From a virus (Duplodnaviria; Caudoviricetes), in the IMG/VR virus record IMGVR_UViG_3300049165_000014, positions 1-52,758 of that record: DNA of 52,758 bases, one strand, 5' to 3'. Below the pieces are notes generated by a model. That model was not told the origin of the DNA. It made no database searches and saw nothing but the letters and a program-made list of their open reading frames with translations. A program made the position numbers and the translations under genes. This document shows positions 1 through 45,322 of this stretch, one piece after another (the stretch's first letter is position 1; each line of letters begins with the position of its first letter).

Positions 1-285
1 GGTATGCGTAGCTCCTGCCATACCCCCAGGGGGTACCTGACCTGCGGAAACGCAGCTACTAAGCCCGCCCTAACCTGCCCCTGCCTGCCCCTGCAAACCC
101 GCTCCCACCTGCGCAAACCCGCCTCTGCAGTACCCCCCTACCCCAGCGCAGCCCAGCTCGCGCAGCACACCCCCTGCTACCTGCACAAACCTGCAAAACC
201 CCAGCTCGCATACCCCCCTCTGCAGGCCGTCCCGTACAGGACGTTCCCGGAGCAGAACGTCTGCTAGCAAACAGTTGCGCAGCGC

Positions 286-390
286 AAGTATCCGGTACGG
301 AACTATCTGCTCCAGGACGATCCGCTGGCAGATCGTTTGGGATGGGATCGTCTGCTGCGGGACGATCTCGTTTGGGACGACCTCGCCAGG
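286..390. repeat. Degenerate 15-bp-period tandem array (7 units) near the likely genome end
   Basis: Units aagtatccggtacgg, aactatctgctccag, gacgatccgctggca, gatcgtttgggatgg, gatcgtctgctgcgg, gacgatctcgtttgg, gacgacctcgccagg. Confidence 0.55.
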
Positions 391-581
391 CAAGGAACCG
401 CCTGCACGCGTACGCGCGATCCTTGTACTTGATCTTGGGGCGTGTGGCGCGCGATTCAACCAGCTCGACCTTGGTCATGTCAAGGCTTTGTGGCCCTCGT
501 CACTCAAGATCTTTTGAGCCTATTTGATCAAGCCTTTGACCTGCGGAAACGATGATGATCATGGCTCTGACCTGCGGGTTT

Positions 582-596
582 GACCTGACTTGGGGC
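582..596 (+). promoter_or_regulatory. Operator/stoperator motif
   Basis: GACCTGACTTGGGGC; consensus RACYTKACTTRGGGC is repeated genome-wide. Confidence 0.8.
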
Positions 597-690
597 CGCA
601 TGGCAAGCTTCTCCCTGTCAGCAAGCGAGCCGGACGGAAGGGAGGTCGAGGATCATGACCAGGGGTCCCCCGAAAAAATCTTGAACCAAG

Positions 691-723
691 GACTTGACTT
701 GGGGCCACCGGCCCTGGTACCTT
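691..723 (+). promoter_or_regulatory. Putative sigma70-type promoter overlapped by an operator (691-705)
   Basis: TTGACT 694-699, 18-bp spacer, TG-N-TACCTT 715-723; operator GACTTGACTTGGGGC covers the -35. Confidence 0.55.
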
Positions 724-918
724 GGTGGCAGCTCGGGAAAGGGTCCCGGACCCCAGCCGCAACGGGCGGTATGGCTCCGGCCCTCGGTAGAGCACGCGTC
801 ACCGAGATACCTGGGTGGGTTACCCCACCTGCACTACCTACACAATTCGATACCGGCCCCATGGCAGGCTGCCCGGTTACGCGGGATGTGTTTGGCCAGT
901 GGTCTCAGACCAGCCGAT

Positions 919-950
919 GACTTGACTTGGGGCCGACCATCCGGTAGGGT
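919..950 (+). promoter_or_regulatory. Major early lytic promoter (Pleft-equivalent) with operator 919-933 over the -35
   Basis: TTGACT(922-927)-N17-TAGGGT(945-950) fits the SigA/HrdB consensus and lies upstream of the whole + strand arm. Confidence 0.8.
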
Positions 951-1034
951 GGTCACCAGCACCAAACCCCCCGGGGAACGGCTCGCAAAGCGAGACGGGA
1001 TCTTTGATCGCCTCCGGTTCCAGCACTGCGGGTG

Positions 1035-1052
1035 TGTTCTTTGACAACTGAA
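1035..1052 (+). promoter_or_regulatory. rrn-type boxA-like antitermination signal
   Basis: TGTTCTTTGACAACTGAA resembles rRNA leader boxA; preceded by hairpin CTCGC-AAA-GCGAG. Confidence 0.55.
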
Positions 1053-1059
1053 AACAAAC

Positions 1060-1330
1060 GATCCCGTAGGGGATGAGCTGTCAACCGCGCCCGAGGTCCC
1101 TTGGATTAGCGGCACCGCGAGTTGCAAAGCTCTGGGGAGAAGTCTGCATAGGCTTCGCTTGCACCCTAAACCGTCAGAACCCGAGGATCCGGGGAGACTT
1201 AGGTTGGCCCAATTGGGCGTACCCGAAGCACGGAAACCACAGCCATGGTGCGCAGTGTAAGGCATCGGCGTGACATGTCCGCCAAACGATCAATCGTGTG
1301 CTGGCAAGCCATGGCTAGTGGAAATAATCA
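1060..1330 (+). ncRNA. Candidate structured leader RNA or ncRNA
   Basis: About 270 nt with no RBS-supported ORF; dense stem-loops (ATCCC-GTAG-GGGAT, GAGTT-GCAA-AGCTC, GAAGTCT-GCAT-AGGCTTC, GGCGTGACATGTCCGCC). Confidence 0.4.
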
Positions 1331-1333
1331 GGC

Positions 1334-1393
1334 TTGATGCTTGAGTCTCAGGTCAGGTGTGTCTTCATACCTGACTTGGGGCTGAGGTTTCGA
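1334..1393 (+). repeat. Intergenic hairpin, family B (contains operator 1368-1382)
   Basis: 18-bp stem AGTCTCAGGTCAGGTGTG/CATACCTGACTTGGGGCT with G:U pairs, followed by GAGGTTTCGA. Confidence 0.85.
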
Positions 1394-1410
1394 ACCTACG
1401 GAGGAATGGC

Positions 1411-1662
1411 ATGGCTGAGGTGTGGCTTGAGATCGTGGACGAGGATGGCACCGCGAGTGTCCGGCGCGTGCCGGAGGCATCGCGCGAGGCAATCGACCTC
1501 GCGATCGGGCAGGCAAGGGATGACGCCCGGGTGATGGTGAGGGATGAGGAACTGTCCGCCGACGCGCGGATCGTGGTCGGCTCGCATGAGCCTCGGTGCA
1601 AGTGCTACGACGGTCTGATCCTGGACAAGTGGTGCAAGGTCCTGGACACGGCATCCATCTGA
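1411..1662 (+). CDS. Small early hypothetical protein
   Basis: GGAGG RBS; 83-aa ORF bounded by hairpin repeats. Confidence 0.8.
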   Translation: MAEVWLEIVDEDGTASVRRVPEASREAIDLAIGQARDDARVMVRDEELSADARIVVGSHEPRCKCYDGLILDKWCKVLDTASI

Positions 1663-1712
1663 GGATTGAGGGTTGGGCAGGTCTCGCACCTGCCCTTCAC
1701 CTGAGTCACCAG
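1659..1712 (+). repeat. Intergenic hairpin, family A
   Basis: GGGCAGGT-CTCGC-ACCTGCCC core flanked by TGAG elements. Confidence 0.85.
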
Positions 1713-1720
1713 ATGGAGGT

Positions 1721-1948
1721 ATGACAATGCACGTCACGGCTTACCGTGAGATGTCAACGCAGGCATTCGACCAGCTCCCTCGCTCGGCGAGGCTTGTCAC
1801 GCAGAAGTTCGGCGTGATCATGGAACTGAGGGATGGGACCACGTCTGCGATCGGGCTGTCGGTGTTCGACGATTTCGCCACGTTCGTGGAGGCATCGGAC
1901 CTGATGCCGAACGTGGTCAAGATGATCCCGGTCAAGCTCCACGACTGA
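1721..1948 (+). CDS. Small early hypothetical protein (start may be 1727)
   Basis: GGAGGT RBS before ATG ACA ATG. Confidence 0.8.
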   Translation: MTMHVTAYREMSTQAFDQLPRSARLVTQKFGVIMELRDGTTSAIGLSVFDDFATFVEASDLMPNVVKMIPVKLHD

Positions 1949-1998
1949 GGTTTCAGTATGGGGACAGGTCTCGCACCTGTCCTCGCCTGAGGTTTCAG
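1945..1998 (+). repeat. Intergenic hairpin, family A
   Basis: GGACAGGT-CTCGC-ACCTGTCC; CTGAGGTTTCAG on both flanks. Confidence 0.85.
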
Positions 1999-2014
1999 AC
2001 ATGGGAGGCAAGAC

Positions 2015-2203
2015 ATGCACGACATCACGGAGTACGCGATCGAGGTCAACGGAGACGTGATCGATGTCGCGTTCCGGGACAAGGACAAGGCTCGGGAGTA
2101 CCGGGAGGAATGGCTGGAGTACTGCGACGATCCCGAGAACACCACGGTGACGATCGTGCACCGTCGCGTGACTTACGGAAGCTGGTTCGGCACCACTCCC
2201 TGA
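2015..2203 (+). CDS. Small acidic early protein
   Basis: GGGAGG RBS; 62 aa. Confidence 0.8.
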   Translation: MHDITEYAIEVNGDVIDVAFRDKDKAREYREEWLEYCDDPENTTVTIVHRRVTYGSWFGTTP

Positions 2204-2256
2204 GTGATCAGCGGGTGGGCTCATCTCAAGGGATGAGCCTAGCCATGGCTACTCAA
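2200..2256 (+). repeat. Intergenic long hairpin (divergent member)
   Basis: GGGCTCATCT-CAAG-GGATGAGCCT core, basal TGAGTG/TACTCA. Confidence 0.7.
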
Positions 2257-2273
2257 CCACCGGAGGAATGATC

Positions 2274-2432
2274 ATGACCGACGCACACGCTGACGCTCGC
2301 AAGGTTCGGCGCGTCAAGGGCAGCGTCAAGGCATGGAACAAGCGGCCTCGCCTGGAGGCTGAGGTTCCGCCCCACCTGGGGCAGGACCAGCCGCGCCGTC
2401 GCCCGTCGTTCTACCCGTCTCGCTCGCGCTGA
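2274..2432 (+). CDS. 52-aa basic protein (below the ORF-track cutoff)
   Basis: GGAGG RBS; MTDAHADARKVRRVKGSVKAWNKRP...SRSR. Confidence 0.7.
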   Translation: MTDAHADARKVRRVKGSVKAWNKRPRLEAEVPPHLGQDQPRRRPSFYPSRSR

Positions 2433-2484
2433 GGGTTGAGTCTCAAGTCAGGACCAAAGACCTGACTTGGGGCTGAGACTTCAG
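2429..2484 (+). repeat. Intergenic hairpin, family B (operator 2459-2473)
   Basis: AGTCTCAAGTCAGG/CCTGACTTGGGGCT 14-bp stem; basal CTGA/TCAG. Confidence 0.85.
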
Positions 2485-2502
2485 ACGAGGAAGAGGTGTG
2501 AC

Positions 2503-2598
2503 ATGCACAAGGCATCGCGCAAGTCCAAGGTTTCGATGATCGTCCGGCGATCGTCCGGACAGATCGTGTTCATCCGCAGCCAGCACAAGGGAGCATGA
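2503..2598 (+). CDS. 31-aa basic microprotein
   Basis: GAGGTG RBS; MHKASRKSKVSMIVRRSSGQIVFIRSQHKGA. Confidence 0.6.
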   Translation: MHKASRKSKVSMIVRRSSGQIVFIRSQHKGA

Positions 2599-2601
2599 GA
2601 G

Positions 2602-2850
2602 GTGTGGCGGATTCTTTCCCTCGCAGCCGCGTTCTCGCTCGCTTTCACGGCGGTGTCAGAGGTGGCGCGCATCGAAGAGGATTCACCACTGTGGAACTGC
2701 CGCACCATGGGGAACGAGGTTTGCGGTACCCCCGATGGCTTCCTGATCTACTACAGGGATGGCAAGGCATGGTCGGTGAGTACCCCTATCAACGGCCGTC
2801 CCATGTGCGGGACGGACGCGCAGTGTGAGCAGTACGCAAGCTGGGGCTGA
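2602..2850 (+). CDS. Secreted or membrane small protein with 4 Cys
   Basis: Hydrophobic signal-like N-terminus; WNCRTMGNEVCG motif. Confidence 0.7.
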   Translation: MWRILSLAAAFSLAFTAVSEVARIEEDSPLWNCRTMGNEVCGTPDGFLIYYRDGKAWSVSTPINGRPMCGTDAQCEQYASWG

Positions 2851-2917
2851 GAGGACTGGCACGGGTGCACAGGCTTGGCCTGTGCACTCCTCTGTGTTCT
2901 CAGACTTGACTTAGGGC
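2847..2917 (+). repeat. Intergenic hairpin (2847-2903) plus adjacent operator 2903-2917
   Basis: GGGTGCACAGGC-TTG-GCCTGTGCACTC, basal CTGAGA/TCTCAG; then GACTTGACTTAGGGC. Confidence 0.75.
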
Positions 2918-2932
2918 AAGAGAGGAATCGAC

Positions 2933-3316
2933 ATGACTGCTCCCCACCTGTCCGCTGAGGCTCGGCTCATCCGTCTGTCGGATGCGCTGGACGTGCCGGA
3001 CGGAGGCTTCAGCATCGACCCCCGTACCGGCGGGGATGTGAGGGTTGGCTACGCCGTGGCCACCCACCCGGAGCGTGAGCGCCGGATCGGGGGGAAGGTT
3101 TCGCCCTCGGATATCCAGGCGTTCGTGTACGACAATGCTGACCTGCTCACGCAGGAAGGCAAGATCATCGGGGGATGGCGCGACCCGCAGTCGGGTGACG
3201 CGTTCCTCGACATCAGTGAGCAGGTGCACGACCGCGAGACAGCCTTGATCCTCGGTGGTCTGCACAACCAGCTCGCTGTGTGGGACTTCGCGCGTGGAGT
3301 TTCCATCTCCGTCTGA
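2933..3316 (+). CDS. Early hypothetical protein
   Basis: GAGG RBS; 127 aa; GGFSIDP...GGW...LDIS...QLAVWD pattern seen in phage proteins. Confidence 0.85.
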   Translation: MTAPHLSAEARLIRLSDALDVPDGGFSIDPRTGGDVRVGYAVATHPERERRIGGKVSPSDIQAFVYDNADLLTQEGKIIGGWRDPQSGDAFLDISEQVHDRETALILGGLHNQLAVWDFARGVSISV

Positions 3317-3368
3317 TGCATGAGTCTCAGGTCATGTCGCAAGACATGACTTGGGGCTGAGGTTTCAG
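3313..3368 (+). repeat. Intergenic hairpin, family B (operator variant 3343-3357)
   Basis: AGTCTCAGGTCATGTC-GCAA-GACATGACTTGGGGCT, 16-bp stem with a GNRA loop. Confidence 0.85.
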
Positions 3369-3381
3369 CCATGGAGGAATC

Positions 3382-3765
3382 ATGATCGTTGAAGACACGG
3401 CATTCGCCTACTCGTACGTGATCGACCCGCACAGGGTTGAGGTGCAGGTGGAATGGGTCGGGCCGGAGTACGACTACGAATTCGGGGGATGGCGGCAGGC
3501 GTACATGCTGCACATCCGGACAGAGGCATCGCACTACACGGACAACACGCTCCGATCTGGTGTCGGCCAGGACATCAACGTGCGGAAGGCATGGGCCTCG
3601 GCCGTGTCCTTCCTCGGTGCCTGTGATGAGGCATGGAACTACGGGGGAGAGGCATCGGAGAACCGGGATCTCTTCCCTCGGTGGGTGATGGAGATCGTAA
3701 GCGATCACATCGATGAGCTGGGCATGCACGCGTACGAGATGGAAGAGGGTTCGCTGATCGCTTGA
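3382..3765 (+). CDS. Early hypothetical protein
   Basis: GGAGG RBS; 127 aa. Confidence 0.85.
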   Translation: MIVEDTAFAYSYVIDPHRVEVQVEWVGPEYDYEFGGWRQAYMLHIRTEASHYTDNTLRSGVGQDINVRKAWASAVSFLGACDEAWNYGGEASENRDLFPRWVMEIVSDHIDELGMHAYEMEEGSLIA

Positions 3766-3808
3766 GGGTTGGGCAGGTCTCGTACCTGCCCTTCACCTGA
3801 GGTATCAG
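3754..3808 (+). repeat. Intergenic hairpin, family A
   Basis: GGGCAGGT-CTCGT-ACCTGCCC...CTGAGGTATCAG. Confidence 0.85.
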
Positions 3809-3819
3809 GGAGGAAAGCC

Positions 3820-4026
3820 ATGGACCAGGAGATCATCCGCAACCTGCCCGTGTACCGCTGGACATCACAGGGTGGCGGCCTGCCATGCGAAGGCATGAAG
3901 GTTCGCAATACCAAGACAGGACGGGAAGGTGTGATCGTCGCCGGTGCTCACTGCACATACAGCGTGGTAGTGGACTACGGAATCTACTGCGTGTACACGG
4001 ACACTGGCGAATTGGAGTGGGCCTAA
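3820..4026 (+). CDS. Small SH3/KOW-like hypothetical protein
   Basis: GGAGG RBS; GMKVRNTKTGREGVIV. Confidence 0.75.
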   Translation: MDQEIIRNLPVYRWTSQGGGLPCEGMKVRNTKTGREGVIVAGAHCTYSVVVDYGIYCVYTDTGELEWA

Positions 4027-4199
4027 TGGACTGTGCCGAGGTCTATCAGTACCGAGGACGCCTTGAACGGGCGAGGGATGCGCGGATCGGGAGGCTTGAC
4101 GATCCCGCCACTGTCCAGGCGTTCGACGACAGGTTCCGTGAGTTCGTAGACGCGAGGACAAAGCATCGGGAACAGACTGGGTGCACTGACTTTCACTGA
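4026..4199 (+). CDS. Small hypothetical protein
   Basis: TAATG stop/start coupling, GGAG RBS. Confidence 0.7.
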   Translation: MDCAEVYQYRGRLERARDARIGRLDDPATVQAFDDRFREFVDARTKHREQTGCTDFH

Positions 4200-4248
4200 C
4201 ATCTGAACGAAAGGCATGTCTCGTACATGCCTTGACTTGAGGTATCAG
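4196..4248 (+). repeat. Intergenic hairpin, family A
   Basis: AGGCATGT-CTCGT-ACATGCCT...TTGAGGTATCAG. Confidence 0.85.
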
Positions 4249-4265
4249 ACATTCGGAGGCATCGC

Positions 4266-4448
4266 ATGTACCAAGTCATGGTCAAGTGGAAGAACCTGCC
4301 GCGAGCACAAAGGCTCGGGCGTGGACGCACGGTCACGCGCAAGGCAGAGGCTCGGGACTTCCGTTGCATTCTCGCAGCGGAGAACGCAGCACGACGGGAG
4401 CTTTCGCTCTCCCGACACGTAGAGGAATGGAAGGTGGTCAAGGTATGA
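4266..4448 (+). CDS. Small basic hypothetical protein
   Basis: GGAGG RBS; 60 aa. Confidence 0.75.
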   Translation: MYQVMVKWKNLPRAQRLGRGRTVTRKAEARDFRCILAAENAARRELSLSRHVEEWKVVKV

Positions 4449-4705
4449 CGGCGCCTCGATTGGAAGAGTTGGTCCTTCTCTCCCTGGCATCAGTAGAGAA
4501 GGCCAACAATCAGATGGTCGTGAATCGTGGGAGCACGATCGACATGACCCGTCCTCTCAGTGAAAGGCTTGCCGCTCGGTCGGCAGATCTGGCAGAGGCA
4601 CAGGTGTACGCCACGCTGGCACAAGCGTTGGCCAATGACACACCCAAGACAGTGCACGTGTCAGGCGGAAGGCATCACCTCAACACGCACAACACCGGGT
4701 ACTGA
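4445..4705 (+). CDS. Hypothetical protein
   Basis: ATGA overlap with the upstream gene. Confidence 0.7.
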   Translation: MTAPRLEELVLLSLASVEKANNQMVVNRGSTIDMTRPLSERLAARSADLAEAQVYATLAQALANDTPKTVHVSGGRHHLNTHNTGY

Positions 4706-4762
4706 CTGGCATCTGAGGATTGGGCACGTCACGCACGTGTCCTTTCCCTGAGACATCAGTCA
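4702..4762 (+). repeat. Intergenic hairpin, family A
   Basis: GGGCACGT-CACGC-ACGTGTCC; basal TGACTG/CAGTCA. Confidence 0.85.
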
Positions 4763-4777
4763 ACCGAAAGGGAAGGC

Positions 4778-5062
4778 ATGGACAAGTTCTGGGAGACCGT
4801 TGACGCGCAGCTCGCCGAACTGCGCTCGGCCAAGTCTGCCGATGACGTGCTACGGATCCTGTCGCTTGAGCGCAACCCGTACGGGCCAGGCTCGGCGTCG
4901 GGCGACGGGTTCTTCGCCGGAGGTGACGGGGGCGAGATGCTGGAAGCCTTGGCCGATGCGGGCTGGTCGCTGGAATGGATCGAGGCGGACTACCACTGGC
5001 GAATGAGGGCACCCAACGGAGACAAGATCAAGTACGTGGAAGGGGACATCTACCGGGGCTGA
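4778..5062 (+). CDS. Hypothetical protein
   Basis: 94 aa ending YVEGDIYRG; RBS present. Confidence 0.85.
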   Translation: MDKFWETVDAQLAELRSAKSADDVLRILSLERNPYGPGSASGDGFFAGGDGGEMLEALADAGWSLEWIEADYHWRMRAPNGDKIKYVEGDIYRG

Positions 5063-5112
5063 AGCTTGAGGATTGGGCACGTCTCGCACGTGCCCTCTCC
5101 CTGAGGTTTCGG
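5059..5112 (+). repeat. Intergenic hairpin, family A
   Basis: GGGCACGT-CTCGC-ACGTGCCC...CTGAGGTTTCGG. Confidence 0.85.
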
Positions 5113-5126
5113 ATCGGAGGTGTGCA

Positions 5127-5714
5127 ATGGGAGAGGTTTCACTGTAGGTCCGGAACATCACTCGGATCTTCCGACTCACGACCGATGACGATCGCAAGGA
5201 AGGGCAGGCATGGTATCGAGAGGCTCGGGCTGTCGCCGATAGCCTTGACCCTGCCGACCCGTCTCGCGCTGCCGCTGTGCTGGCAGTGCTGTCCCCGATG
5301 ACATCGTGGCCGCGCAACGTGAGGCTTGCGCAGGATGCGTACACGGGCAGGAAGCTTGGCTGCCTCGGCCGCAATGCGGATAAGGCTCGGCGCATCCTGG
5401 CTGGGGAGGATCCCGACACCGTGGTATCTGGCCCAAAGGTTCGGGCGTTCTGGCTGACGATCGCCGACCCCATGAACCCTGAAGCTGTGGTCCTCGACCG
5501 CCACGCCGTGGCCATCGCTGCCAACAAGATCCTCGACGATCACACCAGGCAGCGCCTGATCACAGGCAAGAGGTACGAGGCAGCGTGCGAGTTGTACCGG
5601 CGGGCTGCGCGGATCATCTCGAAAGAGATGGGAGAGGAATGGTCGCCCGCCGAGGTGCAGGCTGCGACGTGGTGCTACTGGAGGCGTGAGCGTGCTCTTG
5701 CATTTCACCGATGA
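5127..5714 (+). pseudogene. Conserved phage protein (DUF7178-like) interrupted by an in-frame TAG at 5145-5147
   Basis: GGAGGTG RBS then MGEVSL*VRNITRIF...GQAWYREA...AVLSP..SWPRN...GPKVRAF...LDRHA...EVQAATW in one frame. Confidence 0.7.
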
Positions 5715-5727
5715 CCTTACTTGGGGC
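5713..5727 (+). promoter_or_regulatory. Stoperator motif
   Basis: GACCTTACTTGGGGC overlapping the stop codon. Confidence 0.8.
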
Positions 5728-5732
5728 AGACA

Positions 5733-5819
5733 ATGAGGATCGTTTCCTGGCTGATGCTGTTCCTCGGCTCGGCCGCTGTCGTCTTGGTACTGGGAACCAT
5801 TGCGGAATTGAGGGGATGA
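5733..5819 (+). CDS. 28-aa single-TM peptide
   Basis: MRIVSWLMLFLGSAAVVLVLGTIAELRG fills the gap between genes. Confidence 0.5.
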   Translation: MRIVSWLMLFLGSAAVVLVLGTIAELRG

Positions 5820-5824
5820 GAGGA

Positions 5825-6244
5825 ATGGGTTCGTTCTACCGGGTGTCTCACCTGACCCGCCGGTCCTACGGTGGCGACTACTTCGTGGGTCCGTACTCGG
5901 GACACCACACCTGGGAAGACGGCGACGATCAGTGCGCGGTCGACGACATGGGGTACCGGCACTCGGGAAGCGATGAGCACCCGTCGCCCTTCCGGGACGC
6001 TTTCGATAGGGATGACTGGCGTAACTGGGACAACTGGGTGTGCGGGTTCGACAGCGTTGATGCGCTGAACAATTGGTTCGCAGGTTGGTTCCCGGGACTG
6101 CGTAAGTGTGGGTTCATCGTGCGTGAGTACCGGGTGGATGCATCCGACATCGTGGTGGGCAAGCAAGCCTTGGCCATCGTCGATCGGTGCAACGTGCGGG
6201 CTGTGCGTCGGCACAAGATCACTGACCAGGGCGTGTTCCTTTGA
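5825..6244 (+). CDS. Hypothetical protein
   Basis: GAGAGG RBS; YRV...GPY...HPSP..D...CGF.S...L..WF pattern. Confidence 0.8.
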   Translation: MGSFYRVSHLTRRSYGGDYFVGPYSGHHTWEDGDDQCAVDDMGYRHSGSDEHPSPFRDAFDRDDWRNWDNWVCGFDSVDALNNWFAGWFPGLRKCGFIVREYRVDASDIVVGKQALAIVDRCNVRAVRRHKITDQGVFL

Positions 6245-6302
6245 TCGGAAAGGTTTAGTCATGGGCAGGCACGGTCTGCCTTTGGCTATGCAGGTTCGAT
6301 CA
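6242..6302 (+). repeat. Intergenic long hairpin, family C
   Basis: TGATCGGA...TTCGATCA basal stem; GGGCAGGC-ACG-GTCTGCCT apical stem. Confidence 0.75.
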
Positions 6303-6317
6303 GCAGAGAGGGAAGTC

Positions 6318-6683
6318 ATGGCGAACATCGAGCGTATTGAGCAGGTTCTCAGCCAGATCACGGAGGAGAACCTGGGCATGGGTGACTGGGCGCGGAAGGC
6401 ATCGTGCGGGACCACGATGTGCTTCGCGGGCCATGCTGCTGTCCTCGCTGGGGAGAGCATTGACTGGCGCCTGTCGGAGTTCCCCGACGATCACGGAGGG
6501 GACCAGTACTGGGCGGCGCGTGTGCAGTCCGGTCGGTTCATCGACGAGGTCGCGGAGGAATGGCTGGAGCTGACGCCCTGGCAGGCACACCAGATCTTCT
6601 ACGAAGTCATCATCGGGAACGACGTGAACGCGCTGCGCCGTCACGTGCACAAGGTAGTGAGCCAGCCCGATACCGACGACTGA
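6318..6683 (+). CDS. Hypothetical protein, CGTTMCFAGHA family (paralog 1)
   Basis: RBS present; strong similarity to 7238-7741. Confidence 0.85.
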   Translation: MANIERIEQVLSQITEENLGMGDWARKASCGTTMCFAGHAAVLAGESIDWRLSEFPDDHGGDQYWAARVQSGRFIDEVAEEWLELTPWQAHQIFYEVIIGNDVNALRRHVHKVVSQPDTDD

Positions 6684-6748
6684 TCGGAAGGCTTCGTTAG
6701 TCCGTGTCCATTGAGGGGTGGACACGGGCTTTCGTGGAAGTTCGATCA
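6681..6748 (+). repeat. Intergenic long hairpin, family C
   Basis: TGATCGGA...TTCGATCA basal stem; AGTCCGTGTCCAT/GTGGACACGGGCT apical stem. Confidence 0.75.
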
Positions 6749-6767
6749 ATCAACCGGAAGGAAAGCA

Positions 6768-7154
6768 ATGACTGTGCGGATCACCGATGAGCAGTTCACC
6801 GACGCGCTCAAGGCAGTGGTGCAGGAGCGAGGCAAGGACTTCAAGTACCCCCGTGGAACGGAGGGTTGGTCGGAGAAGTATGGGAACGGGACGTACAACA
6901 CGAACTGCCTGTACGTGAGGACCGACGTGGAGGAACCGGCCTGCTTGATCGGGGCCGCCCTGCACAAGGCAGGCGTGAGCCTTGAGGAGCTGCGGGCGCA
7001 GGAAGGGCAGTCCGCCTGGGCATTCGTCGAGACGTACGGCATCTCTGGGGACAAGGCCAACGCCGCTCAGTCGGCGCAGTACGTGCAGGACGACGGCAAG
7101 ACCTGGGGTGAGGCACTCGAAACGTTCCTCAACTACAAGCCGCTCTCAGTCTGA
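6768..7154 (+). CDS. Hypothetical protein
   Basis: GGAAGG RBS; CLY...PACLIG...QD.G.TWG motif. Confidence 0.85.
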   Translation: MTVRITDEQFTDALKAVVQERGKDFKYPRGTEGWSEKYGNGTYNTNCLYVRTDVEEPACLIGAALHKAGVSLEELRAQEGQSAWAFVETYGISGDKANAAQSAQYVQDDGKTWGEALETFLNYKPLSV

Positions 7155-7237
7155 GTCGACGGACACATGGGGATGGCCGATTCGAAAGGCTCGGCCTTCA
7201 CCCATGGTCAATCGACCGGTACCCAACAACGAGAGGT

Positions 7238-7741
7238 ATGACCATGACCAATCAGGTGCTCATCTCGCAGGTGCTCGACGCCATCACGGTGGAGAACCTG
7301 GACATGGGGAGCTGGGGCAAGGCCAAGGACCCGAAGGCTTCGTGCGGTACGACCATGTGCTTCGCCGGTCACGCGGCGGTGATCGCTGGGCACGAGCTGG
7401 AGTGGGAGGAGCGGCAGGGCTACGACTACGAGGGCAACCCGACCACCTACTACGTGGCGGACTACACCAAGGAGGGACGCCTGATCGAGACCGTGGCCAA
7501 GGACGAGCTGAACATCAGCAAGGACCAGGCCACGGCCATCTTCTTCGCGACCGGCCTGGGCAACAACGTCGAGAGGCTTCGCGAGCTGGTCACCGACGTG
7601 ACCGACAACCCTGAGTTCGTCGGCAGCCGGGAGCACGGCGAGAAGTACGGGCACCTGTACGAGAGCGCCTACTTCGACTTCGACTTCCCCGACTACCAGA
7701 GCGAGTGGGTGGACGACGAGGACTTCGACGACGAGGACTGA
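7238..7741 (+). CDS. Hypothetical protein, CGTTMCFAGHA family (paralog 2), acidic tail
   Basis: GAGAGG RBS; strong GC3 bias. Confidence 0.85.
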   Translation: MTMTNQVLISQVLDAITVENLDMGSWGKAKDPKASCGTTMCFAGHAAVIAGHELEWEERQGYDYEGNPTTYYVADYTKEGRLIETVAKDELNISKDQATAIFFATGLGNNVERLRELVTDVTDNPEFVGSREHGEKYGHLYESAYFDFDFPDYQSEWVDDEDFDDED

Positions 7742-7817
7742 TCGCTGGACTTCAGTCGTGGCCAATGCGAAAGCGTTGGCTATGGCTGTGGACCAACGAT
7801 TGGAGAGGCATGAGGGC

Positions 7818-7982
7818 ATGATCCACGTGATCATCGACGGCATCCAGTTCGCTGCCATCCTGTACCTGGGACGAGCCGCCACGTCGCATCATCGTACGAT
7901 CAGTGGCATCCTGCGGGTGGAGCAGATGATGTCCGACCAGCAGAAGGAGTTCATCAAGTGGCGGAGTGGTCAGAAGGGGTAA
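7818..7982 (+). CDS. Small membrane-associated protein
   Basis: Hydrophobic N-terminus; GAGGG RBS. Confidence 0.55.
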   Translation: MIHVIIDGIQFAAILYLGRAATSHHRTISGILRVEQMMSDQQKEFIKWRSGQKG

Positions 7983-7986
7983 TGCC

Positions 7987-8208
7987 ATGGCGCTAGTGGA
8001 CCTGACCCACGAGGAGATAGCCCTGTTGATCAGGGCAGCGGACAGGTACCACGAGTTCGCGAAGAGTCACGAACAGATCCGCACATTGGACAGTGCGGTG
8101 TCCAAGATGGTGGAGGCAGATCGGAGAGCCTTGAGCGGCTCGACACAGGAAGCGCAGCGCCGGGCGCACAAGCACAGGCTAAACAACCCTCCCCCGAGCG
8201 AGAGGTAA
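7987..8208 (+). CDS. Hypothetical protein
   Basis: RBS, tightly packed in the operon. Confidence 0.7.
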   Translation: MALVDLTHEEIALLIRAADRYHEFAKSHEQIRTLDSAVSKMVEADRRALSGSTQEAQRRAHKHRLNNPPPSER

Positions 8209-8211
8209 GAC

Positions 8212-8481
8212 ATGGCCGAGTGCATCCAACACGGTACGTGGAGTGACAACTACTGTGGTCCGGATTGCGAGCAACTGACCAAGCAGTGGAACGAGAGGCA
8301 AGGCATGGAAGAGACCGCACTCAAGTGGGTAGTGGTTGTGCAGGCCGAGGACGGCGAGGCACCACGGATCCATGGTCCGTTCGACTCCAACCTTGAGGCT
8401 CGGATCTACGAGGACCGGAAGATCGATGCCCCACCCGGGGCAAGGGCGTGGATCGTCCCGATCTACCCGCCTGAGGACTGA
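8212..8481 (+). CDS. Hypothetical protein
   Basis: GAGG RBS; 89 aa. Confidence 0.7.
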   Translation: MAECIQHGTWSDNYCGPDCEQLTKQWNERQGMEETALKWVVVVQAEDGEAPRIHGPFDSNLEARIYEDRKIDAPPGARAWIVPIYPPED

Positions 8482-8492
8482 GAGGTTTCACC

Positions 8493-8747
8493 ATGGGCCA
8501 ATACACGGCAGACCCGGACGCCAGTCCGTTCGATCGCAGCCTGATGACCCTCGCCCAGGTGCTCGACGACAACGGGCACGAGGAGGACGCAGAGATCGTG
8601 GGGTCCGCCGCAGCGGAGCTGCGGGAGTTCCAGAAGCTGCCGGGTGGCACCCCCACGGACGTGTACCGCGTATTGGAGATGGTCCAAGGCTCGGCTGCCA
8701 GCGTGATGGATGTGATCGGAAGGAACTTCCCACCCCCCAGCAACTGA
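8493..8747 (+). CDS. Hypothetical protein
   Basis: GAGAGG RBS; 84 aa. Confidence 0.75.
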   Translation: MGQYTADPDASPFDRSLMTLAQVLDDNGHEEDAEIVGSAAAELREFQKLPGGTPTDVYRVLEMVQGSAASVMDVIGRNFPPPSN

Positions 8748-8757
8748 AAGGCAAGGC

Positions 8758-9078
8758 ATGGCGAAGGCAGTGGTCATCCCCCCGGCGGGAGACGTGCTCG
8801 TGGTCGACTGGCCCGAGGGGGACGACGAGAGACTTCAGACCATGTACCACCACATCAAGGGGTACGTGGAGCTGGTGAACCTGCCGGAGGCAGGCATCCA
8901 CATGTGGGCTGACGAAGAGGGCTTGCTCAAGCCTGACCCGCAGCACAACCTGCGAGCTTCAGTACTGGCGCAGCGTCCCATCGTCGGGACGGTGGTGCTC
9001 ACCCCGTTCACGGAGGGACCCCGATCGCAGGGGTTCACCGAGGAAGAAGCCGAGAAGATCGGAAACCTGTTCGACTGA
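8758..9078 (+). CDS. DUF3846-like protein
   Basis: GYVELV...DEEGLLK...N.RA...IVGTVVL motif. Confidence 0.75.
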   Translation: MAKAVVIPPAGDVLVVDWPEGDDERLQTMYHHIKGYVELVNLPEAGIHMWADEEGLLKPDPQHNLRASVLAQRPIVGTVVLTPFTEGPRSQGFTEEEAEKIGNLFD

Positions 9079-9083
9079 GGTAC

Positions 9084-9145
9084 CGGGCACGCCGCACTGG
9101 TAGCGGCAGGGCTACGGCTCTCCAGGTTCGAGTCCTGGGTGTCCA
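9084..9145 (+). ncRNA. tRNA-like RNA lacking an anticodon loop
   Basis: Acceptor GGGCAC/GTGTCC, D-arm GCCGC-ACTGGTA-GCGGC, third arm AGGGC-TACG-GCTCT, T-arm CCAGG-TTCGAGT-CCTGG. Confidence 0.7.
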
Positions 9146-9184
9146 CTTCGAAAGCAATGACAACACAAACGGGAGGTAACGGAC

Positions 9185-9748
9185 ATGGCACGCGAGGTGA
9201 TCGTCCGCCTGGTCGATGACATTGACCCGAATGTCGAGGCTGACGAAACCGTTAGCTTTGGCATCGACGGGGAGAACTTCGAGATTGACCTCAGCAGTGA
9301 GCACGCGACTGCTCTCCGTGAGGCTCTCGCTACGTATGTGGCGCACGCCCGGCGGGCGAAGGTTTCGCGCCGCTCGTCGCACGGAAAGCCCTCGCCTCAG
9401 CAGGATCGGGAGCTGAACCAGAAGATCCGGGAGTGGGCACGCGAGCGAGGGGCGAAGGTCTCCGACCGAGGCCGTATCCCTCAGCCCATCGTGGACGCCT
9501 ACCACGGCCGTCCATCCAGCTTCGTCCCGACTCTCACCCCAGAGAACGAGGAGAAGGCTCGGGCTCGCGGCCTGGAGTTCGACTCGCCCAACAAGGAGCG
9601 GCTTGCTGAGAACCTGACCCAGGCTTCACAGGCACCAACGCTCACTGTCGTCCCCAGCCCGTTCGAGGTTCCCGCAGGTCAGGTCGAGGAGGCCAAGCCC
9701 AAGCGGGCCACTCGCAAGCGCGCAGGTCGTACGGCCAAGGCCGAATGA
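9185..9748 (+). CDS. lsr2: Lsr2-like DNA-bridging protein with a C-terminal extension
   Basis: LVDDID...ADETVSFGIDG..FEIDLS...IREWAR..G..VSDRGRIP. Confidence 0.92.
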   Translation: MAREVIVRLVDDIDPNVEADETVSFGIDGENFEIDLSSEHATALREALATYVAHARRAKVSRRSSHGKPSPQQDRELNQKIREWARERGAKVSDRGRIPQPIVDAYHGRPSSFVPTLTPENEEKARARGLEFDSPNKERLAENLTQASQAPTLTVVPSPFEVPAGQVEEAKPKRATRKRAGRTAKAE

Positions 9749-9891
9749 CAAGCTTGTAAGTTCGCTCCACGGGGGGGCGAGTGTTAACCAACGACAGTGA
9801 GCCATTTGGGGCACGCCGGTGTGGCGTGTATCACTGAAACGGGGCAACAAATGTCCTCGATGTCCATACGTGAGAGTGAGAGGTACCTACG

Positions 9892-10491
9892 ATGGCTGGC
9901 ATCCCACTGCCTCGCCTTGATCTTGATCGCGCGCTCCGGGTTAGATCAGCCCAGGAGGTGCGGCCGGTGGAGGAGCGGAAGGGTGGTCCTAAGGGGTCAG
10001 GCTTGACCCCGCAGGTCATCGAGGAAGAGAAGGCTCGGGGACTCAATCAGAATCAGATCGCTGCGAAGTACGGTGTGACTCGCCAAACGGTGAGCGGAAT
10101 GAAGAGGCTTCGTGGTCGTTTCTCAATGACTCCCCGTGAGCGGGTTCTGGCACAGTTTCCGTGGAAGATCCCGGCGAGGTTCAATGATGCCGAGATCAAT
10201 CGGAACATGAGGAACCACGCCGAGTATGTAGCCACCGGCGGCAAGGGTATGTCGGATCGCAAGCTCAAGAGGCTTGCCTCCTTCTACCGCAGGCTTGAGC
10301 GTGACAACCTGGTGGTTGAGTTCGATCCAGACATCGAGCCCAACGAGTTCTCCCAACTCGGAGGGTTCAGGCTGGTACCCCGAGAGGACTCGGATGGGGA
10401 TCTGATGATCCGAGTCAACGACTGCACGGTTCTAACCGATGAGGGGCGACGTTTCCTGTGGAGGATTCCCCAGCGTCGCCCTGAAGTCTAA
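9892..10491 (+). CDS. Immunity repressor (Cluster A / L5 gp71-like)
   Basis: N-terminal HTH (NQNQIAAKYGVTRQTVS); HAEYVATGGKGMS..KL.RL..FY...VEFDP...D.MIRVN..T.LT.EG. Confidence 0.9.
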   Translation: MAGIPLPRLDLDRALRVRSAQEVRPVEERKGGPKGSGLTPQVIEEEKARGLNQNQIAAKYGVTRQTVSGMKRLRGRFSMTPRERVLAQFPWKIPARFNDAEINRNMRNHAEYVATGGKGMSDRKLKRLASFYRRLERDNLVVEFDPDIEPNEFSQLGGFRLVPREDSDGDLMIRVNDCTVLTDEGRRFLWRIPQRRPEV

Positions 10492-10663
10492 ACCCGAGAG
10501 ACCTTACTAAGGGTCCCCGTCGGGTCGCGCGTCCATAGCCGATGGTCGCTACCCCGAAATGCGCAGAGGCTAGAGCCCAGCCAGTTGGCCACCTTCCCAC
10601 CACGCTCCCTTGGGTGGTGGCTGGGCTCTGCCCTGCCCAGAAGTAGAACGGACGCACGGCACT

Positions 10664-11862: not shown

Positions 11863-11867
11863 GTTCG

Positions 11868-11912
11868 GACCTTACTTAGGGCGGGACCAAGGTGGTCCCG
11901 CTCTTTTCTTTT
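11868..11912 (+). terminator. Stoperator (11868-11882) fused to an intrinsic terminator
   Basis: GACCTTACTTAGGGC running into GCGGGACCA-AGG-TGGTCCCGC-TCTTTTCTTTT. Confidence 0.8.
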
Positions 11913-18040: not shown

Positions 18041-18072
18041 ACCTGACTTGGGGCCGGGTTAGACCGGCCCCG
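18040..18072 (+). promoter_or_regulatory. Stoperator (18040-18054) fused to a hairpin
   Basis: AACCTGACTTGGGGC; GGGGCCGG-GTTAGA-CCGGCCCC. Confidence 0.75.
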
Positions 18073-18089
18073 GTCGTAGCGAGAGGACT

Positions 18090-21935: not shown

Positions 21936-21951
21936 TCTACTGCTGAAGTAG

Positions 21952-30179: not shown

Positions 30180-30231
30180 GCGGCCACCGGGACCAACCAT
30201 ACTGGCCCCGGTGACCACGGAGAGACTACCG

Positions 30232-45203: not shown

Positions 45204-45302
45204 GGTTGGCAGACCTTTTCTAAGTCAGTAGCAGCGGACCTAAGTTGGGAAGAGGGCGCAGGCGGTCCGCCAGGTAACCTGCGCCCCCAGTCGAGATGAT
45301 CT

Positions 45303-45317
45303 GCCCTAAGTCAGGTC
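45303..45317 (-). promoter_or_regulatory. Stoperator motif (minus strand)
   Basis: Reverse complement GACCTGACTTAGGGC just after the major tail gene. Confidence 0.8.
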
Positions 45318-45322
45318 TTGGA

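What the first reader, a model, noticed from the sequence alone, without database searches (positions are those of the whole stretch)
1334..5112. Array of covarying hairpin repeats that packages early genes into cassettes
Seen: 11 spacers (1334, 1659, 1945, 2200, 2429, 2847, 3313, 3754, 4196, 4702, 5059) are each a 55-60-nt irregular hairpin. Nearly all begin at the upstream TGA stop and end just before the next RBS, so each unit holds 1-2 small unrelated ORFs. Most share the frame YTGA..YTGAG-[apical stem]-CTGAGGTWTCAG. Six family A copies keep the loop C(T/A)CG(C/T) while the stem covaries: GGCAgGT/ACcTGCC, GGCAtGT/ACaTGCC, GGCAcGT/ACgTG(C/T)C and GGaCAGGT/ACCTGtCC. G:U pairs work only on the + strand, and no copy has a U-tract. 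Inference: selection acts on a folded + strand structure. Options: (a) RNase III-type sites cutting the early polycistron into separately stabilised mRNAs, as in the T7 early region; (b) binding sites for a phage RNA-binding or antitermination protein; (c) attC-like or homology junctions for exchanging host-takeover genes as cassettes.
Basis: partly seen in the sequence, partly recalled or inferred. Interest (0 to 1): 0.88.

Follow-up and report, generated by a model that had tools for sequence, protein, structure and literature searches.

The report
Stop-to-RBS RNA hairpins in phage early operon
A soil phage related to mycobacteriophage L5 fills almost every gap between its first ~20 early genes with a long messenger-RNA hairpin, some of which also carry the phage repressor's DNA binding site; the layout mirrors the RNase III cutting sites of phage T7 but its function is untested.

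Summary
All 11 listed gaps fold into single 53-62 nt hairpins (z -4.0 to -7.8), and four more of the same build follow at 6241, 6681, 7151 and 7739. All 15 start 0-4 nt before a TGA (for 14, the upstream gene's stop) and end 6-29 nt before the next start codon. Pairing is specific to the + (mRNA) strand: 55 G:U pairs against 7 A·C juxtapositions.

The window is a temperate L5/Cluster-A-type actinophage in flipped orientation, so this is its Pleft-type early operon. The 3' arm of the three family B hairpins is a separate known kind of element. It is a 16-nt asymmetric motif (RGACCTGACTTRGGGC) with 16 strong and 1 weak sites, all co-oriented with transcription. That fits the stoperator of the gp71-like repressor encoded at 9892-10491.

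The best reading is intercistronic mRNA processing or stability hairpins, like T7 early RNase III sites. The attC reading fails. No close relative exists in any collection searched. The same architecture with unrelated sequence occurs in Rhodococcus Cluster CA phages and in Cluster M phage Rey. Verdict: a new variant of a known but functionally unexplained kind.

The parts
1333..1393 (+). Hairpin B1334 (family B). It closes the non-coding leader, and its 3' arm holds stoperator-like site 1367-1384.
   Evidence: 26 bp, -38.3 kcal/mol, z -7.8; reverse complement -15.8. Site.
1659..1712 (+). Hairpin A1659 (family A)
   Evidence: 19 bp, -29.9, z -4.0. CM R1 78.1 bits.
1945..1998 (+). Hairpin A1945 (family A), flanked on both sides by CTGAGGTTTCAG
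   Evidence: 23 bp, 6 G:U, z -4.9. Flanking boxes.
2200..2257 (+). Hairpin C2200 (unrelated apical stem, same architecture)
   Evidence: 22 bp, -31.4, z -5.9.
2429..2484 (+). Hairpin B2429 (family B). Its 3' arm holds stoperator-like site 2458-2475.
2847..2903 (+). Hairpin D2847 (unrelated apical stem). It has a T-rich tail and is followed at once by stoperator-like site 2902-2919.
3313..3368 (+). Hairpin B3313 (family B). Its 3' arm holds stoperator-like site 3342-3359.
3754..3808 (+). Hairpin A3754 (family A). Its 5' base lies in the last codons of gene 3382-3765.
4196..4248 (+). Hairpin A4196 (family A, the most diverged copy)
   Evidence: -20.4, z -4.1.
4702..4763 (+). Hairpin A4702 (family A)
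5059..5112 (+). Hairpin A5059 (family A)
6241..6303 (+). Hairpin E6241 (not in the finding). It runs from stop codon to RBS.
   Evidence: -33.3 against -16.7 on the other strand, z -4.6, 6 G:U. Position.
6681..6748 (+). Hairpin E6681 (not in the finding). Its lower stem resembles that of E6241.
   Evidence: -40.7 against -24.4, z -5.8. Position.
7151..7219 (+). Hairpin F7151 (not in the finding). It is the only one with no strand bias.
   Evidence: -42.9 on both strands, z -4.1.
7738..7803 (+). Hairpin G7739 (not in the finding)
   Evidence: -43.9 against -24.0, z -7.0, 7 G:U.
581..598 (+). Stoperator/operator-like site in the non-coding leader region
690..723 (+). Operator-like site overlapping a promoter-like TTGACT(694-699)-18 nt-TACCTT(718-723)
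   Evidence: for the site. The hexamers are read from the sequence and were not listed by the E. coli-type scan.
918..950 (+). Operator-like site overlapping a promoter-like TTGACT(922-927)-17 nt-TAGGGT(945-950). This is the candidate Pleft equivalent.
   Evidence: The hexamers are read.
5712..5729 (+). Stoperator-like site that starts at the stop codon of gene 5127-5714, with no hairpin
9892..10491 (+). Immunity repressor gene (L5 gp71 family), the presumed binder of the 16-nt motif
   Evidence: 1129 phage records matched, and the top hits are 48.6-52.1% identical and annotated as immunity or transcriptional repressor. Weak HTH.
11867..11884 (+). Stoperator-like site 5 nt after the Cas4-type exonuclease gene. 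Further + strand sites lie at 13878, 15352, 18039, 21951 and 23823, with a weak one at 10499.
45301..45318 (-). Stoperator-like site on the - strand within the - strand late genes. A second lies at 50460-50477.

Best explanation
The window is a temperate actinophage of the L5 / Cluster A-CA supercluster, presented in flipped orientation. Positions 1-1400 are its non-coding end with Pleft-type promoter(s). Positions 1.4-7.8 kb are the first part of the early operon, which is transcribed by the host RNA polymerase.

In that stretch, 15 of the gaps between small genes are each filled by one long irregular hairpin that forms in the mRNA. The hairpin's 5' base contains the upstream stop codon, and its 3' base ends just before the next Shine-Dalgarno sequence.

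I read these as intercistronic RNA elements that set the fate of the polycistronic early transcript. They would act as double-strand-specific (RNase III-type) cleavage sites, as barriers to exonucleases, or as both. Each one- or two-gene segment would then become a separately stabilised, separately translated message, as in the T7 early region.

A second layer works on the DNA. Three hairpins carry the asymmetric 16-nt binding site of the gp71-like repressor (a stoperator) in their 3' arm, and one carries it just behind. The 5' arm pairs with that site through G:U wobbles, so no inverted second site is created on the DNA.

Shown: the structures, their strand specificity, their placement, the motif statistics and the repressor homology. 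Inferred: cleavage or stabilisation, repressor binding and promoter activity. The confidence given (0.5) is for the processing or stabilisation mechanism; that the elements act as RNA structure at all I hold at about 0.85.
For: Structure:
- 15 of 15 elements fold with z -4.0 to -7.8.
- The + strand is more stable in 14 of 15, with one tie.
- 55 of 343 pairs are G:U, against 7 A·C juxtapositions in symmetric internal loops. The binomial p is 6e-6 after correcting for base composition.
- On the 9 A+B copies aligned by the covariance model, 95.3% of cells pair, against 86.5 +/- 1.7 in shuffles (0 of 500 reach the observed value). Seven pairs have changes on both sides (5 of 500 shuffles reach this). 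Slid controls pair at 26-48%.
- At least five unrelated apical sequences share the same architecture.

Placement:
- The first paired base lies -4 to 0 nt from the stop-codon T, and the last lies 6-29 nt before the start codon, in 15 of 15.
- Beyond 7.8 kb the genes are tightly packed and no further copy is found.

Phage type:
- The DNA polymerase is about 60% identical to Cluster A phages.
- L5 gp53 and gp49 families, ThyX, RNR and a tyrosine integrase are present.
- A repressor homologue is present.

Motif:
- 14 matches against 1.3 expected.
- The PWM finds 16 strong sites and 1 weak site, and all 17 are co-oriented with local transcription.

T7 comparison:
- The five early intergenic gaps of T7 fold into 21-26 bp structures that favour the sense strand, with 4-6 G:U each. 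The 0.4/0.5 gap hairpin starts at the stop codon.
- That these gaps are the RNase III sites is recalled from memory. It is not annotated in the record fetched.

Termination:
- Only 1 of the 15 has a T-rich tail.
- The title and abstract start of PMC3993855, seen in the listing, state that mycobacterial RNA polymerase needs a U-tract at intrinsic terminators.
Against: - There are no expression data of any kind, so cleavage, transcript ends and stability are untested.
- The host is unknown, so the presence of RNase III rests on general knowledge of Actinobacteria.
- The copies are paralogues within one genome, and the alignment was fitted to the model, so the covariation statistics are inflated.
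- Symmetric changes in near-perfect palindromes can arise by templated (quasipalindrome) mutation without selection.
- F7151 shows no strand bias.
- Many coding-region windows of this GC-rich genome reach similar raw energies. The case therefore rests on placement, z-scores and G:U asymmetry, not on energy alone.
- L5 and Gordonia phage Nedarya, which have the same regulatory system, have tight gaps with essentially no such hairpins. The hairpins are therefore not required by the stoperator system.
Confidence: 0.5

Rival explanations
1. The hairpins are weak, U-tract-less terminators or pause sites. They would lower transcription stepwise along the early operon, or be overridden by a phage antitermination factor, giving temporal order.
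For: They are GC-rich stems in the transcript of every gap. D2847 has a T-rich tail. In L5-type phages, transcript levels fall by more than 90% after the leader RNA without a canonical terminator (passage of PMC5712189). B1334 sits at exactly that place.
Against: 14 of 15 lack a T-run. PMC3993855 (title and abstract start, listing) reports that mycobacterial RNA polymerase requires a U-tract. Fifteen successive terminators would nearly silence the distal early genes and everything downstream in the same operon.
Confidence: 0.15
2. The hairpins are binding sites on the RNA for a phage or host protein, such as a translational repressor, a chaperone or an antiterminator. That protein would co-regulate the early cistrons.
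For: Families A and B keep a common lower-stem frame, and family A keeps a 5-nt loop C(T/A)CG(C/T) while a stem pair covaries. The hairpins end 0-10 nt before the Shine-Dalgarno sequence, where a bound protein could affect initiation.
Against: Six of the 15 hairpins have unrelated apical stems and loops, so no single sequence-specific binder fits all. The family A loop varies at 2 of 5 positions, so it is no better conserved than the stem. No RNA-binding domain was seen in the ORFs scanned, though most ORFs have no annotation.
Confidence: 0.1
3. The repeats act mainly on the DNA, as homology or recombination junctions. These would let small host-takeover genes be gained, lost or swapped as cassettes, and the RNA fold would be secondary.
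For: Dispersed direct repeats of 47 nt at 77-91% identity exist. The ORFs between them are unrelated, with 1 paralogous pair among 24, and they have homologues in distant phage clusters. PMC5712189 (passage) reports deletions by recombination between stoperators. PMC7953290 (passage) reports gene insertions in Cluster M that come with a copy of the CR3 repeat. In RGL3 versus PhailMary, one gene-content breakpoint falls within about 5 nt of the edge of a hairpin gap.
Against: None of the 15 has attC-type end boxes (the box consensus is recalled from memory). No integron-type integrase was found. G:U-rich stems are poor DNA palindromes. Adjacent hairpins are not more alike than distant ones (permutation p 0.29). 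Breakpoints at gene boundaries are the rule in phage mosaicism whether or not repeats are present. No relative of this phage exists to test it directly.
Confidence: 0.1
4. The hairpins are passive packaging of untranslated intercistronic RNA. By keeping the gaps double-stranded they would hide them from Rho loading and single-strand endonucleases (RNase E), and insulate each ribosome binding site from its upstream context, with no cleavage.
For: Each hairpin consumes essentially the whole gap from stop codon to the Shine-Dalgarno region. The architecture is kept across unrelated sequences.
Against: This does not explain why 55-90 nt gaps exist at all, when the rest of the operon and L5 itself use overlapping or 0-50 nt junctions. 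It overlaps with the best explanation and is hard to separate from it without experiments.
Confidence: 0.1

Closest known systems
RNase III processing sites of the phage T7 early region (R0.3, R0.5, R1, R1.1, R1.3; names and cleavage recalled from Dunn and Studier, not from a call)
   Same: Both are a family of about 50-65 nt irregular hairpins with about 20-26 bp, placed between small early genes that the host polymerase transcribes from promoters at the genome end. Both favour the sense strand and are rich in G:U. At least one T7 site starts at the upstream stop codon and ends before the next RBS.
   Different: There is no sequence similarity. There are 15 sites rather than 5. The host is an actinobacterium of unknown identity. 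Cleavage is not shown. Some copies double as repressor sites on the DNA.
[quoted passage not shown]
   Same: Both are 13-16 nt asymmetric motifs in many copies, oriented with transcription, intergenic or at gene ends, with one or two copies overlapping the -35 of the early promoter. A gp71-family repressor gene lies in the syntenic place (passages of PMC5712189, PMC6550527, PMC5721134 and PMC13313380).
   Different: The consensus RGACCTGACTTRGGGC differs from those quoted for L5 (GGTGGMTGTCAAG) and Cluster CA (TGTCTATTGTCAAG). The motif explains only 4 of the 15 hairpin gaps. The papers read do not mention hairpins around stoperators ('hairpin' occurs 0 times in PMC5712189, PMC6550527 and PMC13313380).
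Stem-loops with conserved repeats CR3/CR4 between right-end genes of Cluster M mycobacteriophages
   Same: In phage Rey, 7 of 7 gaps folded contain a strong hairpin, and at least 4 of these start at the stop codon. The sense strand is more stable in 6 of 7. A repeat containing an RBS follows in 6 of 7. PMC7953290 (passage) mentions stem-loops upstream of CR3/CR4 and gene insertions that bring a CR3 copy. Window ORF 3382-3765 has its only phage homologue in that very region of Rey.
   Different: The sequences are unrelated, with no R1 match. Rey has a conserved RBS-linked repeat that the window lacks. The window has stoperators that Cluster M is not reported to have. The primary Cluster M paper (PMC3958112) is not held, so its account was not read.
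SAS / ESAS of Cluster K mycobacteriophages
   Same: Both are imperfect inverted repeats (17 bp arms, 4-13 bp spacer) just upstream of translation starts of a subset of non-structural genes, paired with a 13-nt asymmetric motif. Their function is unknown, and a role in translation was suggested (PMC3203893, abstract and passages).
   Different: ESAS are shorter and tied to a motif that contains the RBS. Here the asymmetric motif is promoter/operator-like and the hairpins are anchored on the stop codon.
Integron attC sites
   Same: Both are imperfect hairpins that follow each small promoterless ORF in an array, and only one strand folds.
   Different: None of the 15 has the end boxes. No integron integrase is present. 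The folding strand is the mRNA strand. The hairpin is tied to the stop codon and RBS rather than to a recombination point.

Membership tests
Cluster A/CA-type stoperator system | gp71-family immunity repressor encoded in the early arm next to a Cas4-type exonuclease | tested here: met
   tblastn of 9892-10491 matched 1129 phage records. The top hits are 48.6-52.1% identical and annotated as immunity or transcriptional repressor. A PD-(D/E)XK exonuclease lies at 11002-11862. The gene order matches PhailMary, Idleandcovert, L5 and Nedarya.
Cluster A/CA-type stoperator system | Many copies of a 13-16 nt asymmetric motif | tested here: met
   14 matches with up to 1 mismatch against 1.3 expected, and 0 of 100 shuffles reach 14. 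The PWM finds 16 strong sites and 1 weak site. 13 of these built the PWM.
Cluster A/CA-type stoperator system | One orientation relative to transcription; intergenic or at gene termini | tested here: met
   17 of 17 are co-oriented with local genes. By my reading of the contexts, 15 of 17 are non-coding or overlap a stop codon. The sites at 13878 and 50460 lie inside 3' ends of genes.
Cluster A/CA-type stoperator system | A site overlapping the -35 of the early lytic promoter | tested here: inconclusive
   TTGACT-17/18 nt-TAGGGT/TACCTT at 922-950 and 694-723 overlap two sites (sequence). The promoter scan did not list them, and promoter activity is not shown.
Cluster A/CA-type stoperator system | Repressor binds the sites and blocks elongation | not testable with these tools
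   Needs a gel shift and a reporter assay.
RNase III processing sites (T7 early type) | Intercistronic irregular hairpin of about two helical turns in a host-transcribed early polycistron | tested here: met
   19-32 bp with internal loops in 15 of 15. The T7 gaps folded for comparison have 21-26 bp.
RNase III processing sites (T7 early type) | Structure specific to the transcript strand | tested here: met
   14 of 15 are more stable on the + strand. 55 G:U pairs against 7 A·C juxtapositions.
RNase III processing sites (T7 early type) | Cleavage by RNase III that yields discrete mRNAs | not testable with these tools
   No RNA run is listed for this sequence. Needs end mapping in wild type versus rnc mutant, or in vitro cleavage.
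Integron attC | Conserved end boxes (5' RYYYAAC ... GTTRRRY 3'; consensus recalled from memory) | tested here: not met
   0 of 15 have the two boxes at their ends.
Integron attC | Adjacent integron integrase | tested here: not met
   The only integrase seen is a phage-type tyrosine integrase at 30283-31167, next to a tRNA-like attP region and 22 kb away. An IntI-specific model was not run.
Intrinsic terminators | GC-rich stem followed by a U-tract | tested here: not met
   Only D2847 among the 15 is flagged. The 6 terminator-like sites found in 1-11000 equal the shuffle mean of 5.7.
Any Rfam family | Match to a curated covariance model | tested here: not met
   At gathering threshold, only a tRNA-like hit at 31175-31231. 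With E up to 5 on 1-11000, only a chance-level snoRNA hit.

The most novel reading that the evidence does not exclude
The hairpin is a portable three-in-one 'expression adaptor' for incoming genes. One 55-65 nt module would do three jobs. It would give the mRNA a processing or insulation site. In its B form, it would put the gene under lysogenic silencing through an embedded stoperator whose partner arm uses G:U wobbles, so that no inverted site appears on the DNA. And it would offer dispersed homology through which small host-takeover genes are captured and shuffled between phage clusters. If so, the unexplained stem-loop and repeat arrays of Cluster K, M and CA phages would be versions of the same device.
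Probability: 0.12. Interest if true: 0.8.

Novelty: new variant of a known kind. Interest (0 to 1): 0.5.

Why it matters
Small repeats and stem-loops between the early or right-arm genes of actinophages (stoperators, SAS/ESAS, CR1-4) have been catalogued for more than a decade, and for most of them no function has been shown. This phage gives a clean case. It has fifteen hairpins from several sequence families with strict stop-to-RBS placement and a strong G:U signature, which points to the mRNA as the level of action. Its layout closely parallels the T7 RNase III sites. It also shows a DNA operator and an RNA stem sharing the same bases. If cleavage or stabilisation is confirmed, it would explain how L5-type phages tune many tiny early genes from a single promoter. 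It would also supply natural insulator parts for high-GC hosts.

Tried and rejected
Relatives:
- Megablast and blastn of 1000-6000 against the phage collection found nothing.
- Exact-pattern scans of IMG/VR for the family A apex and the family B arm gave only single hits per contig. Two of them (L015, L004) carry one similar apical hairpin but no array.
- Protein-seeded scans found nothing closer than 61% (DNA polymerase) or 52% (repressor). The queries were gp5148, DNA polymerase, exonuclease and repressor.
- L093, a metagenomic contig with a 49% identical repressor, was only listed for ORFs and not analysed further.

Expression: no RNA holder is listed for the stretch. The only run listed may be the source of the DNA.

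Raw-energy scan: 64-nt windows at or below -28 kcal/mol are common on both strands of this GC-rich genome, so raw energy was dropped as a criterion.

Local duplication: adjacent hairpins are not more alike than distant ones (p 0.29). The identity measure used there is crude.

Other scans:
- R1 finds nothing in the right arms of L5, Nedarya, Idleandcovert, PhailMary, RGL3 or Rey.
- The attC boxes are absent.
- A MITE or REP-like reading was rejected because true terminal inverted repeats would fold equally on both strands.
- A CRISPR-like reading was rejected because the 'spacers' are 190-450 nt coding genes.

Tools and papers:
- The primary Cluster M paper (PMC3958112) is not held.
- Supplements of the papers read were not opened, and their figures of stoperator and repeat maps may bear on whether hairpins were noticed before.
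- 'Not described' rests on searches, and on the term counts.

Full report
WHAT THE WINDOW IS. The window is a whole virus record of 52,758 nt. Genes run on the + strand from about 1.4 to 30.2 kb and on the - strand from 30.3 kb to the right end.

The - strand block encodes portal, capsid, a VG15-type protein, long tail proteins and part of a large terminase. The + strand block encodes DNA polymerase I, ribonucleotide reductase, ThyX, the L5 gp49 and gp53 families, endonuclease VII, a DnaB-like protein, a Cas4-type exonuclease and Lsr2. A tyrosine integrase lies at 30283-31167, next to a tRNA-like match at 31175-31231.

The polymerase is about 60% identical to those of Cluster A mycobacteriophages and Gordonia phage Nedarya. 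ORF 9892-10491 is 48.6-52.1% identical to annotated immunity repressors of Cluster A and Cluster CA phages. The local order of exonuclease, small gene, repressor, a run of small genes and a 1.2-1.4 kb non-coding end is the same as in PhailMary, Idleandcovert, L5 and Nedarya. The window is therefore an L5-type temperate phage drawn in reverse, and the finding lies in its Pleft-type early operon.

No close relative exists in any collection I could search.

THE OBSERVATION. Each of the 11 listed gaps folds into one long irregular hairpin of 53-62 nt and 19-26 bp. Z-scores against dinucleotide shuffles are -4.0 to -7.8. In all 11 the + strand folds better than its complement.

The six family A copies are the only matches in the window to the apical pattern (6 against 0.14 expected). 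A covariance model built from them finds them plus the three family B copies at 25-31 bits over the full model length, and nothing else in the window on the + strand.

On the nine aligned copies, 95.3% of cells pair, against 86.5 +/- 1.7 in shuffles. Seven pairs change on both sides. Slid controls pair at 26-48%. The copies are paralogues and the alignment was fitted to the model, so these numbers flatter the structure.

THE ARRAY IS LONGER. Reading on, the gaps at 6241, 6681, 7151 and 7739 hold hairpins of the same build, with z -4.1 to -7.0. For all 15 elements, the first paired base lies 0-4 nt before the T of a TGA codon. That codon is the upstream stop in 14 of them; the first element follows the leader. 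The last paired base lies 6-29 nt before the next start codon, which is just ahead of the Shine-Dalgarno sequence.

The order of sequence families is B, A, A, C, B, D, B, A, A, A, A, E, E, F, G. At least five unrelated apical sequences therefore share one architecture. After 7.8 kb the genes overlap or are a few bases apart.

The ORFs between the hairpins are unrelated to each other, apart from one paralogous pair at 6318 and 7244. Five of the ten ORFs scanned match PHROG families, all of unknown function.

WHICH STRAND, WHICH MOLECULE. The 15 predicted stems contain 343 pairs, of which 55 are G:U. Only 7 A·C juxtapositions occur in symmetric internal loops, and these are what would be G:U pairs on the other strand. 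Allowing for base composition, p is 6e-6. The + strand is more stable in 14 of 15, and F7151 is a tie.

Together with the anchoring on stop codon and RBS, this points to the transcript. A cruciform, a transposon-like inverted repeat or a palindromic protein site would not show it. Only D2847 has a T-rich tail.

THE SECOND LAYER. The 3' arm of family B is not private to the hairpins. TGACTTGGGGC with up to one mismatch occurs 14 times against 1.3 expected, 13 times on the + strand among + strand genes and once on the - strand among - strand genes. A matrix built from 13 sites finds 16 strong sites and one weak site, with consensus RGACCTGACTTRGGGC, and every one points with local transcription.

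By my reading of their contexts, 15 of the 17 are non-coding or overlap a stop codon. Two of them carry TTGACT followed after 17-18 nt by TAGGGT or TACCTT in the non-coding end (sequence).

This is the published description of Cluster A and CA stoperators and operators: asymmetric, 13-14 bp, intergenic, one orientation, one over the Pleft -35, and bound by the gp71-type repressor (passages). I therefore read the motif as this phage's stoperator. Binding itself is inferred.

In family B the 5' arm pairs with the motif through three G:U wobbles. The matrix finds no inverted site there, so the RNA can pair without creating a second, wrongly oriented operator on the DNA.

The motif accounts for 4 of the 15 gaps (three inside a stem, one just behind D2847). 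It also occurs without a long hairpin, for example at 5712. L5 and Nedarya, which use the same regulatory system, have tight gaps and almost no hairpins. The hairpins are therefore a separate feature.

THE SAME ARCHITECTURE ELSEWHERE. In Rhodococcus phages RGL3 and PhailMary (Cluster CA), several 70-100 nt early gaps fold into hairpins that begin at CTGA. Four of the six RGL3 gaps that I folded contain the published stoperator core. In three of those, and in one PhailMary gap, the core sits in the 5' arm or loop of a shared hairpin frame.

In Cluster M phage Rey, 7 of 7 right-end gaps hold a strong hairpin. At least four begin at the stop codon, six favour the sense strand, and six are followed by a conserved repeat containing an RBS. 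A genome note on Cluster M mentions stem-loops upstream of the CR3/CR4 repeats and gene insertions that arrive with a CR3 copy. Cluster K phages have imperfect 17-bp inverted repeats upstream of a 13-nt start-associated motif, with function unknown.

None of these shares sequence with the window's families. The papers on stoperators that I could read do not mention hairpins.

HOW IT MOST LIKELY WORKS. I folded the five early intergenic gaps of T7, which I recall as its RNase III sites; they are not annotated in the record. They gave 21-26 bp structures that favour the sense strand, with 4-6 G:U each. The 0.4/0.5 gap hairpin starts at the stop codon and ends before the next RBS. The window's elements have the same size, the same placement, the same family-like repetition and the same setting: small early genes read by the host polymerase from the genome end.

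I therefore favour intercistronic processing or stability elements. They would be cut by a double-strand-specific nuclease or would act as exonuclease barriers, so that each one- or two-gene segment has its own lifetime and an RBS free of upstream context. B1334 would likewise close the long leader. In L5-type phages that leader is an abundant, stable non-coding RNA whose 3' end is unexplained (passage).

Confidence that the elements act as RNA structure is high, about 0.85. Confidence in processing or stabilisation specifically is about 0.5. The rivals are hairpin-only attenuation, a protein-binding RNA site, passive shielding of untranslated RNA, and DNA-level recombination junctions.

THE CASSETTE IDEA. 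The attC reading fails its membership test (0 of 15 end boxes, no integron integrase). Adjacent hairpins are not more alike than distant ones. Even so, dispersed 47-nt repeats at 77-91% identity are obvious substrates for recombination. Three further points bear on this:
- Deletions between stoperators are reported in D29 relatives.
- Cluster M insertions carry a repeat copy.
- One RGL3/PhailMary gene-content breakpoint lies within about 5 nt of a hairpin gap.

Gene-boundary breakpoints are usual in phages, and no relative of this phage is available, so this stays open as a side effect rather than the main function.

VERDICT. The feature is real, statistically solid and more extensive than reported. 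It combines a known DNA element (stoperators) with an RNA hairpin array of a kind that has been seen in other actinophage clusters but never explained. No experiment or expression data bear on it.

Noticed in passing
window 5127-5714 (TAG at 5145-5147): The gene after the last family A hairpin has a good RBS and an ATG at 5127, but an in-frame TAG at codon 7. The frame downstream matches phrog_3842 from profile position 19 (E 1.3e-40), and there is no ATG/GTG/TTG in frame until 5277. This could be a nonsense mutation, an assembly error or read-through.
   Followed up: partly
window 9076-9150: The gap between the DUF3846 gene and the Lsr2 gene folds as a tRNA-like cloverleaf. It has an acceptor-like stem, a D-like arm, a 5-bp arm with a 4-nt loop in place of an anticodon arm, and a T arm with GGTTCGAGTCC. 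ARAGORN and Rfam (E up to 5) do not call it, and its energy z-score is 0.0. It may be a degraded tRNA gene or an RNase P-type processing signal.
   Followed up: partly
window 31175-31231: A tRNA match (34.8 bits, gathering score 29) lies directly beside the tyrosine integrase gene, and ARAGORN finds no tRNA. It is probably the attP core that copies the 3' part of a host tRNA gene.
   Followed up: no
window 950-1333: A non-coding leader of about 400-650 nt lies between the promoter-like sites and the first gene and carries four stoperator-like sites. It is in the same position as the abundant, stable, toxic non-coding RNA reported downstream of Pleft in L5, D29 and StarStuff (PMC5712189).
   Followed up: no
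window 51847-52758: The large terminase gene runs off the right end of the record, with only its nuclease domain present. The record is therefore cut on that side despite the 100% completeness estimate.
   Followed up: no
window 6318-6683 and 7244-7741: These are two paralogous early genes (44% identity over 124 aa), each preceded and followed by a hairpin. The hairpins of the two copies are not alike.
   Followed up: partly
window 18039-18085, 21951-21990: At two later stoperator-like sites, the G-rich 3' end of the motif forms the 5' arm of a short GC hairpin (GGGGCCGG...CCGGCCCC and GGGGCGGGGC...GCCCCGC). The motif is thus partly base-paired in the RNA there too.
   Followed up: no
window 30179-30280 and 27105-27168: These are the strongest 64-nt hairpins of the genome. 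The first reaches -40.8 on + and -43.0 on -, between the convergent + operon and the integrase gene, and is probably a two-way terminator. The second reaches -41.3 on +.
   Followed up: no
L088 (phage Rey) 5378-5460 versus window 2847-2903: The lower stems of one Rey hairpin and of D2847 are nearly the same words (CTGAGAG ... TGTTCTCAG), although the apical parts differ. Window ORF 3382-3765 has its only phage homologue in the same Rey region. This could be chance or shared ancestry of the modules.
   Followed up: no
L015 (960-1025) and L004 (254-285): Two unrelated IMG/VR contigs each carry one hairpin with the same apex as family A (GGCACGTCTCGCACGTGCC) just after a TGA. The L015 copy scores 43.7 bits with R1. 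There is a single copy per genome, not an array.
   Followed up: partly
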